In this document: positions 35,873 through 36,973 of the stretch, piece after piece
Position numbering within the stretch: the stretch's first letter is position 1
How the letters are laid out: each line of letters starts with the position of its first letter
Source: a virus
Reading direction: 5' to 3' (one strand)
DNA length: 64,000 bases
IMG/VR virus record: IMGVR_UViG_3300032053_000003
Span: 94,392 to 158,391 of that record
Position numbers and translations under genes: made by a program
Notes under the pieces: model-generated
The model's database searches: none
Seen by the model: only the letters and a program-made list of their open reading frames with translations
Told to the model about the DNA's origin: nothing

Positions 35873-36580
35873 ATGTCAAAAGCTGCTACTTTACTTAATT
35901 TATTTGAAGCTACTAATGTACAAAAAGTAAAGGATATTGCCAAGGAGTTGTTGGATAGATTCTTCTCAGAGTATGACCTCCCTATTCCTGATATAAAGAT
36001 TAAGAATAATTTGAATCCTAAGTGGTTGGCTAGGCATGTTTGTTTCAGTGCTAACAGGGAGAATTCCAATATTGAAGTTCAAAAATCCGTTTTGGATGAT
36101 GATAGAACCTTACGAAGAATAATAGCTCATGAGCTTATCCATCACTGGCAGTGTTTTAAAGAGAAGGATGAAAAGAGTTTTAACCCTGCCTATCGTAGAG
36201 CTATGAGGGCAATGGGGAAAGATACAGGACATGGTGAGAGTTTTGAGAAATGGGCAGAAAAGATTAACAGTGTCATGGGTGATAACTATGTAACCAAAAA
36301 GTCTGACCAGGAGTATCTCAAATCTCCATCTAAAGAGTTTTACTTGGTAATATCACCTCATGATAGTGGTAGATTTATATATGCATACTTTCAAAGACCT
36401 ACTGATAAAACAAAGAGACTTATTTATTTACATAAAGATGCAAAGGTCTTTAGGACAAATAATGTGAGATTTCTTCGTGGTCGTGTTTTTGGTACAAAGG
36501 GAGGTTGGTCTATTCCCTCTGATCAGGAAACTCAGGATACTCTGAAAGATATGTACAGTGGAGAAGGGATAAAGTTTTGA
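35873..36580 (+). CDS. HExxH zinc metallopeptidase-like protein carrying the MSKA tag (MSKAATLLNLFEA…IAHELIHHWQ)
   Basis: HELIH motif at residues ~85-89. Tag N-terminus. Inserted between the spike and other baseplate genes. Confidence 0.55.
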   Translation: MSKAATLLNLFEATNVQKVKDIAKELLDRFFSEYDLPIPDIKIKNNLNPKWLARHVCFSANRENSNIEVQKSVLDDDRTLRRIIAHELIHHWQCFKEKDEKSFNPAYRRAMRAMGKDTGHGESFEKWAEKINSVMGDNYVTKKSDQEYLKSPSKEFYLVISPHDSGRFIYAYFQRPTDKTKRLIYLHKDAKVFRTNNVRFLRGRVFGTKGGWSIPSDQETQDTLKDMYSGEGIKF

Positions 36581-36598
36581 TTAATAGTGAGGTGAGGT

Positions 36599-36973
36599 AT
36601 GAGTAAGGCCAAAGCACTTTTGGAGTTCCTCAGTGACTTTCACAAGGACTATGATTTTGTAAGTAAGGTAGGTAATCTCCCTATTGGAGATCTTAAACTT
36701 GATGATGGTGTAGGCATTGTTGATATTGAGTTACCTTTGGATGATGTGGACCCTCTTTCAGCTCAGGTAATAGTACCTCTCCATTTTACCTACGATGATG
36801 ACTACACACCTTCCATCAAAATAGACGTAGACAAGTACCTTGCTGCAGATGATGGCAACCCTGCTTATCTTAGTAAAGAAGGGAAGCAGAAGGTTGTGGA
36901 TTACCTCACATCCAATAAAGCTAAAATGGAAAATGATCTTGAGAAGTTTCTTGTGTCTGAAATGGAAAAATAA
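36599..36973 (+). CDS. hypothetical acidic protein, MSKA-tag family (MSKAKALLEFLSD…)
   Basis: ORF track entry. GAGGTGAGG SD. Confidence 0.6.
   Translation: MSKAKALLEFLSDFHKDYDFVSKVGNLPIGDLKLDDGVGIVDIELPLDDVDPLSAQVIVPLHFTYDDDYTPSIKIDVDKYLAADDGNPAYLSKEGKQKVVDYLTSNKAKMENDLEKFLVSEMEK

What the first reader, a model, noticed from the sequence alone, without database searches (positions are those of the whole stretch)
35873..36973. Tag-bearing HExxH metallopeptidase inserted in the baseplate module
35873-36580 (MSKAATLLNLFEA…RIIAHELIHHWQ…) and 36599-36973 (MSKAKALLEFLSD…) interrupt the conserved order spike to gpW/J/I. The first is a SprT/WLM-like or other minimal zincin. With the tag it is a candidate packaged or ejected protease, acting on host cell wall or defence proteins, or a virion maturation enzyme.
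Basis: partly seen in the sequence, partly recalled or inferred. Interest (0 to 1): 0.55.

Follow-up and report, generated by a model that had tools for sequence, protein, structure and literature searches.

The report
Tagged SprT-like protease, probably capsid-packaged
A jumbo phage encodes a SPRTN/SprT-type zinc protease whose 12-residue N-terminal label is shared with about 50 unrelated small proteins clustered around the head-assembly genes, so it is most likely cargo loaded into the capsid and injected with the DNA, not a baseplate part.

Summary
Both ORFs are real and sit between the gp5/V spike gene and the gp25/W-J-I baseplate genes.

- **The tag** (M-[ST]-K-A-x-x-φ-φ-x-φ-φ-E) is selected at the peptide level. 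It sits on at least 48 unrelated small proteins. All of these lie in a ~27-kb block around a T4 gp21-type prohead protease-scaffold fusion and a gp23-type capsid gene, except the two studied here. It ends in the gp21-type cleavage motif φ-x-E.
- **Best reading (inferred, not shown):** the tag is a T4-CTS-like capsid-targeting propeptide, and the protease is packaged and injected.
- **Gene position:** it is conserved in two relatives but differs in a third, so it is a plastic slot and not a recent insertion.
- **Rejected readings:** cell-wall or virion-maturation roles are not supported.
- **ORF2** is a clade-restricted acidic companion of unknown function.

The enzyme itself is ordinary. The scale of the tag system is the interesting part.

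The parts
35873..36580 (+). ORF1, 235 aa: tagged two-domain SprT-like zinc metalloprotease
35873..35908 (+). N-terminal tag of ORF1, MSKAATLLNLFE (residues 1-12), ending in L-F-E before Ala13
   Evidence: Tag HMM score 22.2 bits. φ-x-E ends at residue 12. All five close homologs keep the tag. Predicted helical.
35951..36286 (+). SprT-like zincin catalytic domain (residues 27-138). HELIH is at 36128-36142 (H86, E87, H90) and the third ligand H120 is at 36230-36232.
   Evidence: Pfam envelope. H86, E87 and H90 are invariant and H120-G121 at least 90% conserved in 33 diverse homologs. The family profile aligns HExxH...GHGxEF...iN with human SPRTN.
36308..36577 (+). C-terminal ~90-aa basic alpha/beta domain (residues 146-235) of unknown function, always coupled to this SprT clade
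   Evidence: Conserved across the whole 20-240 region in 369 cluster representatives, and duplicated in P0007. pI 9.7, family median 9.4. No credible Pfam or PDB-sequence match.
36599..36973 (+). ORF2, 124 aa: tagged (MSKAKALLEFLSD), acidic (pI 4.3) companion protein of unknown function
   Evidence: ORF. Tag HMM 18.6 bits. pI. Only 4 close homologs plus the L002 ortholog at 47% identity. Follows the SprT gene in the window, L002 and L009. Model pLDDT 65 and an uninformative fold search.
34772..35869 (+). Context: gp5/V-type baseplate spike
   Evidence: Phage_base_V E = 3.3e-11 and Gp5_C. phrog_430 E = 4.9e-34.
36976..37581 (+). Context: untagged, conserved 201-aa protein of unknown function between ORF2 and the gp25-like gene
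   Evidence: No Pfam or PHROG hit. 62% identical ortholog at the same place in L002.
37591..40219 (+). Context: gp25/W-like (37591-38289), Baseplate_J (38292-39692) and Tail_P2_I (39692-40219)
13610..15178 (+). T4 gp21-type (S77) prohead protease fused to a repeat-rich scaffold-like C-terminal half; the presumed enzyme that removes the tag
   Evidence: phrog_207 'head maturation protease' E = 9.4e-20. 26% identity to T4 gp21 residues 50-174, pairwise E = 8e-5, aligning the stretches that hold gp21's active-site His and Ser, as I recall their positions. Orthologs in relatives carry PF03420 Peptidase_S77. Four G[ST]xxEIxxAL repeats.
15285..16709 (+). T4 gp23-type major capsid protein with an N-terminal propeptide ending at I-P-E66
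   Evidence: PF07068 E = 7.4e-14. The φ-x-E motif is conserved at this boundary in 13 relatives, in the same alignment columns as T4 LTE65.
227..25243 (+). Block holding about 46 further tagged small genes (17-178 aa, most 60-130 aa), interspersed with untagged genes and flanking the protease and capsid genes
   Evidence: The block extends 1.6 kb upstream of the window (L007). No tags in the 10 kb downstream of the window.

Best explanation
**What ORF1 encodes.** ORF1 is a stand-alone, two-domain SprT/SPRTN-type zinc metalloprotease. Its catalytic site is H86-E87-x-x-H90 plus H120. It also has a basic C-terminal domain of unknown function.

**The tag and how it most likely works.** The first 12 residues (MSKAATLLNLFE) are a lineage-wide address peptide carried by about 50 otherwise unrelated small proteins. 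By analogy with the T4 capsid targeting sequence, I infer three steps:
1. The amphipathic tag binds the scaffolding core of the assembling prohead.
2. The phage's gp21-type prohead protease then cuts it off after the φ-x-E motif.
3. The mature basic protease stays in the head with the DNA and is injected into the next host.

**What it does after injection.** It would act before any phage gene is expressed. The most plausible action is cleaving host proteins, possibly DNA-bound defence or nucleoid proteins. Less likely, it processes co-injected phage proteins.

**Gene position and ORF2.** The gene's place after the spike gene reflects a permissive slot in a late operon, which guarantees late synthesis. 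It does not indicate a baseplate role. ORF2 is a co-tagged acidic companion, presumably co-packaged, with unknown function.

**Shown versus inferred.**
- Shown: fold and active site, family membership, modularity and peptide-level selection of the tag, protease and capsid types, synteny.
- Inferred: packaging, cleavage, injection and substrates.
For: **Enzyme**
- Pfam SprT-like above threshold.
- Invariant H86, E87 and H90, and near-invariant H120-G121, in 33 homologs.
- The family profile aligns with SPRTN's metal site.

**Link to injected proteins**
- The same SprT plus C-domain module lies inside 800-3400-aa proteins with ART-PolyVal, NUDIX, GNAT and DUF3990 domains.
- It also lies inside Tunturi_5 gp321, in that phage's head-tail region.
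- Such polyvalent proteins are held to be injected with the DNA, and the MPTase is their commonest domain (PMC5512222; PMC7824862).

**Tag**
- 37 regex hits against 0.3 expected, all on the + strand; about 48 by HMM.
- Selection is on the peptide, not the DNA: Ser uses both TCN and AGY codons, Leu uses both CTN and TTR, and third positions are near-random.
- No two tag-stripped proteins are similar at E < 1e-3.
- K/R3, A/S4 and φ7 are present in 45 of 45 in-register tags, and φ8 in 44 of 45.
- 46 of 48 tags have φ-x-E ending at residues 9-14, and 33 of 48 at residue 12 or 13, against a background of about 1% per residue.
- Tagged genes flank the gp21-type protease-scaffold and gp23-type MCP genes. 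They are absent from tail and baseplate genes and from the 10 kb downstream.
- The MCP propeptide boundary carries a conserved φ-x-E where T4 has LTE65.
- 26 of 48 mature tagged proteins are basic, median pI 8.8.

**T4 precedent**
- A 10-residue N-terminal CTS is sufficient for head targeting. It is shared by otherwise unrelated internal proteins and is cleaved at I-x-E by gp21 (PMC9026906; PMC3012670). T4 sequences were read directly.

**Timing and position**
- No promoter-like or terminator-like site lies at the 3-, 18- and 2-nt junctions inside the late baseplate operon.
- The homolog in L003 lies among tagged head-module genes, so the position is not tied to the baseplate.
Against: - There is no direct evidence that any tagged protein is in virions or is cleaved.
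- The T4 CTS does not score with the tag HMM. The resemblance is in architecture and pattern, not demonstrable homology.
- About 50 cargo species would be far beyond the three or four CTS proteins of T4.
- 15 of 48 mature tagged proteins are acidic, including ORF2, unlike the basic T4 internal proteins.
- A few tags lack a good φ-x-E: 10599 has none before residue 40 and 22674 has none at all. ORF2 has LLE9 or LSD13.
- Small ORFan genes of this kind usually look like early genes. Timing could not be established: the T4 late-promoter motif is not enriched and no shared intergenic motif was found.
- Only about 80 kb of the 237-kb genome was examined.
- The conserved position right after the spike in three genomes could instead mean tail association.
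Confidence: 0.5

Rival explanations
1. The tag is not a capsid address. It is a shared N-terminal peptide with another role: a degron or adaptor-binding helix that times the turnover of many small phage proteins, a docking helix for a common phage or host hub, or partly a translation-initiation optimum (MSK...). On this reading the SprT-like protease is a non-virion intracellular enzyme made during infection. It would cleave host proteins or resolve DNA-protein adducts on replicating phage DNA.
For: - The tagged proteins are small ORFans typical of host-takeover genes.
- One third are acidic.
- The T4 CTS shows no detectable sequence homology to the tag.
- N-terminal MSK/MTK is a common start in highly expressed bacterial genes (own knowledge).
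- SprT-like proteases in T4-related jumbo phages have been proposed to target host proteins without any claim of packaging (PMC7824862).
Against: - Conservation extends through residues 7-12 with synonymous codon variation, so translation initiation cannot explain it.
- The tag ends in the cleavage motif of the very protease type this phage encodes.
- Tagged genes are concentrated around the protease, scaffold and MCP genes, and two sit inside a late baseplate operon with no room for their own promoter.
- The only tagged protein with a recognisable fold belongs to a family that recurs in injected polyvalent proteins.
Confidence: 0.28
2. ORF1 and ORF2 are tail or baseplate-associated cargo. They would be lodged in the tube lumen or under the spike and ejected first, as their position between the spike and gp25 suggests. 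The tag would serve tail loading, not head loading.
For: - The spike-SprT-ORF2 order is conserved in the window, L002 and L009.
- The genes are co-transcribed with baseplate genes.
- T4 keeps the spike-tip protein gp5.4 in the equivalent slot.
Against: - The same tag is on about 46 genes clustered at the head-assembly genes, and on no recognised tail or baseplate protein.
- The L003 homolog lies in the head module.
- Neither ORF matches any tail-protein family.
- The T4 slot also holds non-structural ORFs: 5.1, segC and 5.3.
Confidence: 0.1
3. ORF1 is a virion maturation enzyme. It would process structural or cargo proteins during assembly, or trim co-packaged proteins inside the head, as proposed for MPTase domains that autoprocess polyvalent proteins.
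For: - Iyer et al. propose autoproteolytic processing as a main role of polyvalent-protein MPTases (PMC5512222).
- An extra zincin is conserved in some jumbo phage groups and is suggested to act in maturation (PMC7824862).
Against: - The phage has a dedicated gp21-type prohead protease next to its MCP.
- ORF1 is stand-alone, so there is no polyprotein to autoprocess in cis.
- The gene changes position between relatives, which fits an accessory gene better than a core morphogenetic one.
Confidence: 0.08
4. ORF1 attacks the host cell wall during entry.
For: Only its proximity to the spike gene, which here lacks a lysozyme domain.
Against: - The fold is SPRTN/Wss1/minigluzincin-like, not a peptidoglycan peptidase such as M15 or M23.
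- There is no signal peptide or cell-wall-binding domain.
- A peptidoglycan-hydrolase-like region is more plausibly in the 818-aa tape-measure-like protein, but that was not tested.
Confidence: 0.02

Closest known systems
T4 capsid targeting sequence (CTS) of internal proteins IPI/IPII/IPIII and Alt
   Same: - A short (10-13 residue) N-terminal peptide is the only feature shared by otherwise unrelated small proteins.
- Hydrophobic residues at positions 7-8, preceded by a polar or acidic residue.
- It ends in φ-x-E, the gp21 cleavage motif.
- The phage has a gp21-type protease and a gp23-type capsid.
- Most mature proteins are small and basic.
   Different: - No detectable sequence homology (MKTYQEFIAE against MSKAxxLLxxLE).
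- Two residues longer.
- About 50 carriers instead of 3-4.
- One third of the carriers are acidic.
- The genes are clustered around the head genes, whereas in T4 they are scattered.
- Packaging and cleavage are untested here.
Zincin-like MPTase modules of phage polyvalent proteins (Iyer et al. 2017, PMC5512222)
   Same: Homologous SprT plus C-domain modules (E down to 1e-39) sit inside giant proteins with ART-PolyVal, NUDIX, GNAT and DUF3990 domains. These are proposed to be delivered with the DNA and to process effectors or attack host proteins.
   Different: ORF1 is a stand-alone 235-aa protein, not a multidomain polypeptide. Delivery would depend on the N-terminal tag instead of fusion to a large packaged protein.
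Human SPRTN (Spartan) and yeast Wss1 DNA-protein crosslink proteases
   Different: - About 19% identity.
- No SPRTN zinc-binding subdomain.
- No SHP, PIP, UBZ or SIM motifs.
- The C-terminal domain is unrelated to anything solved.
- DNA dependence is untested.
ArdC (plasmid R388/pSa antirestriction protein)
   Different: ORF1 lacks the ArdC-N ssDNA-binding domain, with no Pfam hit outside SprT-like, and it is much closer to SPRTN than to ArdC.
SprT-like metallopeptidases of T4-related (group 2.2) jumbo phages (Iyer et al. 2021, PMC7824862)
   Same: Stand-alone SprT-like proteases in jumbo phages that also have a gp21 ortholog. Variable copy number and position. Proposed to cleave host proteins.
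   Different: That paper, as far as I searched it, reports no shared N-terminal tag and makes no claim of packaging. The relationship of those proteins to this clade was not tested.

Membership tests
SprT-like family (Pfam PF10263) / zincin metallopeptidases | Profile match above the curated gathering score | tested here: met
   39.0 bits against a cut-off of 25.6, E = 7.9e-10, residues 27-138. All five close homologs carry PF10263.
SprT-like family (Pfam PF10263) / zincin metallopeptidases | HExxH plus a third zinc ligand (His of the GHG motif, as in SPRTN) | tested here: met
   H86, E87 and H90 invariant, and H120 and G121 at least 90% conserved, in 33 homologs of 28-66% identity. The motif aligns with SPRTN HEMIH...GHGPEF.
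SprT-like family (Pfam PF10263) / zincin metallopeptidases | Zincin fold (beta-sheet plus active-site helix) | tested here: met
SprT-like family (Pfam PF10263) / zincin metallopeptidases | Metal-dependent proteolytic activity | not testable with these tools
   Needs a biochemical assay with an E87Q control.
SPRTN/Wss1 DNA-protein crosslink proteases | DNA-binding zinc-binding subdomain or basic region, and DNA-activated proteolysis | tested here: not met
   The C-terminal domain has no Cys/His cluster and no match to SPRTN or to any PDB or Pfam entry. It is basic (pI 9.7), so DNA binding is possible but by a different module. DNA activation is not testable here.
ArdC antirestriction proteins | N-terminal ArdC-N ssDNA-binding domain fused to the metalloprotease | tested here: not met
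   No domain other than SprT-like was detected at E <= 1. The region before the protease domain is only 26 residues, a single helix.
Polyvalent proteins (Iyer et al. 2017) | Two or more unrelated effector domains in one large polypeptide | tested here: not met
   ORF1 is 235 aa, with one catalytic domain plus one small domain. Homologous modules do occur in true polyvalent proteins, so ORF1 is a relative of a polyvalent-protein module and not itself a polyvalent protein.
T4-type capsid targeting sequence (CTS) propeptide | Short N-terminal peptide shared by otherwise unrelated proteins | tested here: met
   About 48 ORFs. No pairwise similarity after removing the tag. Peptide-level selection.
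T4-type capsid targeting sequence (CTS) propeptide | Ends at a prohead-protease site (φ-x-E) | tested here: met
   46 of 48 tags have φ-x-E ending at residues 9-14, and 33 of 48 at residue 12 or 13. ORF1 has L-F-E12 before Ala13.
T4-type capsid targeting sequence (CTS) propeptide | Phage encodes a gp21-type protease, a scaffold and a gp23-type capsid | tested here: met
   PF03420 on orthologs. Conserved φ-x-E at the MCP propeptide boundary.
T4-type capsid targeting sequence (CTS) propeptide | Sequence homology to the T4 CTS (MKTYQEFIAE) | tested here: not met
   T4 ipI, ipII and ipIII N-termini are not among the best-scoring starts in the 50-kb T4 locus with the tag HMM. The best T4 score of 6.5 bits is noise, and gp23's N-terminus scores 3.7 bits. 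Only the pattern is alike.
T4-type capsid targeting sequence (CTS) propeptide | Sufficient for incorporation into proheads, removed during maturation, and the protein present in virions | not testable with these tools
   Needs virion proteomics with N-terminal mapping and tag-reporter fusions.

The most novel reading that the evidence does not exclude
The tag is a general capsid-loading address. This jumbo-phage lineage would then pre-load its head with about 50 different small, mostly ORFan effectors, each made as a separate tagged protein instead of as domains of one giant polyvalent protein. A SPRTN-like protease among them would strip or destroy host proteins on or near the incoming DNA. 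The injected proteome of an uncultured phage could then be read directly from its sequence, and the tag could be used as a handle to find new anti-defence proteins.
Probability: 0.4. Interest if true: 0.85.

Novelty: new variant of a known kind. Interest (0 to 1): 0.6.

Why it matters
The enzyme itself is an ordinary member of a known family. SprT-like proteases are common in phages, have been noted in T4-related jumbo phages, and occur as modules of injected polyvalent proteins.

What is unusual is the delivery logic implied by the tag.

- **Scale.** If the tag works like the T4 capsid targeting sequence, this lineage has expanded a three-or-four-protein system into roughly fifty cargo proteins.
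- **Modularity.** It would also have replaced "one giant multidomain injected protein" with "many small individually addressed proteins".
- **Practical consequences.** That would give a sequence-only way to list the proteins an uncultured phage injects, a rich source of candidate anti-defence factors, and a second natural address peptide for engineering protein delivery by phage capsids.
- **A starting point.** The SprT-like protein is the only tagged protein with a recognisable fold, so it is the natural place to begin testing the idea.

Tried and rejected
1. **DNA-level repeat or recombination cassette as the cause of the tag.** Rejected. Codon analysis shows synonymous variation and near-random third positions.
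2. **Paralogous gene family.** Rejected. No pairwise similarity remains once the tag is removed.
3. **Close relatives in cultured phages.** None. The only tblastn hit for ORF1 is Tunturi_5 gp321, and baseplate J matches reach only about 20% identity.
4. **IMG/VR viral contigs.** Scans with ORF1 and with the MCP found nothing.
5. **T4 late promoter TATAAATA.** 3 found against 4.1 expected. A de novo intergenic k-mer search gave no shared motif. The sigma-70 and terminator scan was not enriched. Expression timing therefore stays unresolved.
6. **Functional hints from the other 45 tagged proteins.** No credible Pfam hits, and only four PHROGs of unknown function.
7. **C-terminal domain of ORF1.** Only noise in PDB-sequence and Pfam searches.
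9. **Tag in more distant relatives (MCP 44% and 30% identity).** Tag-like N-termini score 9.4 and 8.3 bits, against 7.0 and 6.5 bits for the best chance hits in unrelated loci. This is suggestive only.
10. **Hydrophobic-moment comparison.** Not discriminating: 0.43 against 0.38.
11. **Direct match of the 522-aa protease to PDB sequences.** No hit. Its identity rests on the PHROG match, the pairwise gp21 alignment and orthologs' PF03420.
12. **The AFDB fold library** was unavailable.
13. **Rfam.** Nothing in 35-41 kb.
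Full report
**1. The observation**

Both ORFs are present on the + strand exactly as described. ORF1 is 35873-36580 (235 aa, MSKAATLLNLFEA...RIIAHELIHHWQ...). ORF2 is 36599-36973 (124 aa, MSKAKALLEFLSD...).

- 34772-35869 is a gp5/V-type spike (Phage_base_V E = 3.3e-11, Gp5_C, phrog_430 E = 4.9e-34).
- 37591-38289 is gp25/W-like.
- 38292-39692 is Baseplate_J.
- 39692-40219 is Tail_P2_I.

A third gene fills the gap, 36976-37581 (201 aa, untagged, no family match). The genes are packed with spacers of 3, 18 and 2 nt and have no promoter-like or terminator-like sites at the junctions. The two ORFs therefore look co-transcribed with the baseplate genes.

**2. What phage this is**

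The exact ORF1 protein is on record from a 237-kb contig, so this is a jumbo phage. The major capsid protein (15285-16709) is T4 gp23-type (PF07068). The window also has a T4_baseplate protein, a sheath and a tube. No cultured phage is close: baseplate J reaches only about 20% identity to anything in the phage collection.

**3. ORF1 is a real SprT/SPRTN-type zincin with an extra domain**

- Pfam SprT-like (PF10263) scores 39 bits against a gathering cut-off of 25.6.
- A profile search of 1.84 billion cluster representatives finds 369 relatives at E <= 1e-3. The match usually spans residues ~20-240, so the protease domain and a ~90-residue C-terminal domain travel together. In P0007 the C-domain is duplicated.
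- In 33 homologs of 28-66% identity, H86, E87 and H90 are invariant and H120-G121 are at least 90% conserved.
- The family profile aligns HExxH...GHGxEF...iN with human SPRTN. I recall the His of SPRTN's GHG motif as its third zinc ligand, so H120 would be the third ligand here.
- An AlphaFold2 model is confident (pLDDT 93.2, pTM 0.84).

The C-terminal domain is basic (pI 9.7, family median 9.4) and has no credible relative in Pfam or among PDB sequences. It is not SPRTN's zinc-binding subdomain.

**4. Relatives of ORF1 sit inside polyvalent proteins**

Many family members are 800-3400-aa proteins. Five of these were scanned:
- Four carry ART-PolyVal (PF18760), NUDIX, GNAT, DUF3990 or 2'-5' RNA-ligase domains around the SprT module.
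- The fifth showed only the SprT-like domain.

The only hit in cultured phages is inside Tunturi_5 gp321. This is a 1362-aa "MutT/NUDIX" protein encoded between a head-tail connector and a minor tail protein.

Iyer et al. describe such polyvalent proteins as effectors delivered with the DNA. The zincin-like MPTase is their commonest domain. They propose that it autoprocesses the polyprotein before, during or after packaging, or attacks host proteins directly (PMC5512222). SprT-like peptidases in T4-related jumbo phages were likewise suggested to cleave host proteins (PMC7824862). ORF1 is a stand-alone version of such a module.

**5. The tag is a genome-wide peptide signal**

- A loose regex finds 37 ORF starts with the motif, all on the + strand and all behind a Shine-Dalgarno sequence, against 0.3 in shuffles.
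- An HMM raises this to about 48 distinct ORFs.
- In 45 in-register tags the pattern is M1, S/T/G/N2, K/R3 (45/45), A/S4 (45/45), polar 5-6, L/F/V/I7 (45/45), L/I/V/M8 (44/45), polar 9, mostly hydrophobic 10-11, then E at 12 or 13.
- Selection acts on the peptide. Ser is encoded by both TCN and AGY, Leu by both CTN and TTR, and third codon positions carry almost no information.
- After removing the tag, no two of the 48 proteins are similar at E < 1e-3.
- The other 45 have no credible Pfam match.

The tag is therefore a modular address on unrelated proteins. ORF1 is the only carrier with a recognisable fold.

**6. Where the tagged genes are**

All lie between 227 and 25243, except ORF1 and ORF2.
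- The block extends 1.6 kb upstream of the window and then stops (L007).
- The 10 kb downstream of the window has no tag at all, although it contains small genes.
- No recognised tail or baseplate protein carries it.

In the middle of the block sit the MCP and, directly upstream, a 522-aa protein whose N-terminal ~220 residues are a head maturation protease:
- phrog_207, E = 9.4e-20.
- 26% identity to T4 gp21 residues 50-174, with GTIGHA/GELNHP and SSRASGS/SSRGLGS aligned. I recall gp21's active-site His and Ser as lying in those two stretches.
- Orthologs in more distant relatives carry PF03420 Peptidase_S77, the gp21 family.
- Its C-terminal half has four G[ST]xxEIxxAL repeats and looks like a fused scaffold.

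**7. Why a T4-like capsid targeting sequence is the best model**

The T4 precedent:
- The first 10 residues of IPIII (MKTYQEFIAE, read from the T4 record) suffice to load foreign proteins into the head.
- Residues 4 and 7 govern targeting, and residues 8 and 10 (I-x-E) govern cleavage by gp21.
- The CTS is the only thing the diverse internal proteins share (PMC9026906; PMC3012670).

What matches here:
- 46 of 48 tags contain φ-x-E ending at residues 9-14, and 33 end exactly at residue 12 or 13. The background in the same proteins is about 1% per residue. ORF1 has L-F-E12 followed by Ala.
- The MCP has a conserved [IML]-x-E at its propeptide boundary in 13 relatives, in the same alignment columns as T4 LTE65. 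This suggests gp21-like specificity is retained.
- Mature tagged proteins are mostly small and basic: median pI 8.8, and 26 of 48 above pI 8.
- The tag is predicted helical in both models.

Limits of the comparison:
- The T4 CTS does not score with the tag HMM, so I claim analogy of architecture, not homology.
- One third of the cargo would be acidic.
- Fifty cargo species is without precedent.
- Nothing here shows packaging.

**8. Is it an insertion in the baseplate module?**

- The order spike-SprT-ORF2 is conserved in a 247-kb relative (L002; ORF1 52%, ORF2 47%, 201-aa gene 62% identity) and in L009. In L002's 20-kb structural module these two genes are again the only tagged ones.
- A 56%-identical tagged homolog in L003 lies among tagged small genes next to the protease and MCP genes.
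- T4 itself has accessory ORFs (5.1, segC, 5.3, 5.4) between genes 5 and 6.

The slot is a permissive place in a late operon. It says little about where the protein ends up.

**9. ORF2**

ORF2 is acidic (pI 4.3; 26 D/E against 14 K/R) and tagged. It is restricted to this clade and follows the SprT gene in three genomes, but not in L003. Its model is poor (pLDDT 65) and the fold search is uninformative. A role as partner or inhibitor of the basic protease is possible but unsupported.

**10. Verdict**

| Claim | My probability |
|---|---|
| ORF1 is an SprT-like metalloprotease | about 0.95 |
| It is made late, in the baseplate operon | likely |
| The tag is a capsid-targeting, protease-removed propeptide and ORF1 is injected cargo | about 0.5 |
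| The substrates are host DNA-associated or defence proteins | speculative |

The enzyme is a new member of a known kind. The tag system is a new and much expanded variant of the T4 CTS principle, and it is what makes the finding worth pursuing.

Noticed in passing
window 13610-15178 (+): The prohead protease (gp21/S77 type) is fused to a ~300-aa C-terminal half with four ~23-aa repeats (G[ST]xxEIxxAL) and an acidic tail, so it looks like a protease-scaffold fusion. No separate gp22-like scaffold gene lies between it and the MCP.
   Followed up: partly
window 40213-40653 (+), intergenic: An iteron-like array of about 8 copies of a 46-nt unit, mostly at 36-nt spacing, with bipartite core GGGTTTCA...GTGATTCATA. 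It lies between the P2-I-like baseplate gene and the 1576-aa fibre-like gene. It could be an origin or a regulator-binding array. There is no Rfam match.
   Followed up: partly
L009 1288-2985 (= P0006): A close tagged homolog of ORF1 carries a canonical intein of about 330 aa: first residue Cys, last residues His-Asn, +1 Ser, and a LAGLIDADG endonuclease domain. It is inserted exactly at the family's most conserved motif, KIN|SVMGDNYVT, between the protease and C-terminal domains.
   Followed up: partly
P0011, P0017, P0021, P0025, P0032, P0033 and P0020, P0037, P0038, P0045, P0052, P0055 and P0041-P0043, P0057: SprT homologs from other lineages lack the MSKA tag but share other group-specific N-terminal peptides, for example M(R)F..K..KYR(I/V)(I/V)S, MK.LI.AL..IV and LE.L..ARG. 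These could be lineage-specific address peptides or simply part of the first helix.
   Followed up: no
window 764-817 and 227-412; 1210-1407 and 1404-1649: 764 encodes only 17 aa (MSKAKEVLKALYETDRG*), and its tag is nearly identical to that of the gene at 227 (MTKAKEVLKALHETDD). The genes at 1210 and 1404 also share near-identical tags (MNRSQQIISLSE and MNRAQQIISLSE). These look like remnants of duplication or tag-mediated recombination.
   Followed up: no
window 8294-9352 (+); relatives: A PAS-domain protein sits inside the tagged/head block. More distant relatives encode a PAS-HATPase-response-regulator hybrid histidine kinase next to their head genes, which is unusual for phage structural regions.
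   Followed up: no
L003 1401-2905: An IS200/IS605-type TnpA (Y1_Tnp) and a TnpB (Cas12f1-like_TNB) lie two genes downstream of the SprT homolog in this relative. This fits the region being a site of gene flux.
   Followed up: no
window 36976-37581 (+): An untagged 201-aa protein with no family match. It is 62% identical in L002 and always sits between ORF2 and the gp25-like gene. It is probably an unrecognised baseplate component.
   Followed up: partly
window 6430-7653 (+), internal position 7294: The 407-aa ORF contains an in-frame internal tag-like start (MSRAKDITKLVESA, HMM 12.9 bits). This may be two genes or a fusion of a tagged gene to an upstream one.
   Followed up: no
window 60719-63851 and L014 10617-14604: A cluster of methyltransferase, glycosyltransferase, MptE-like and transglutaminase-core genes follows the fibre genes. 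It may modify the virion or the host surface.
   Followed up: no
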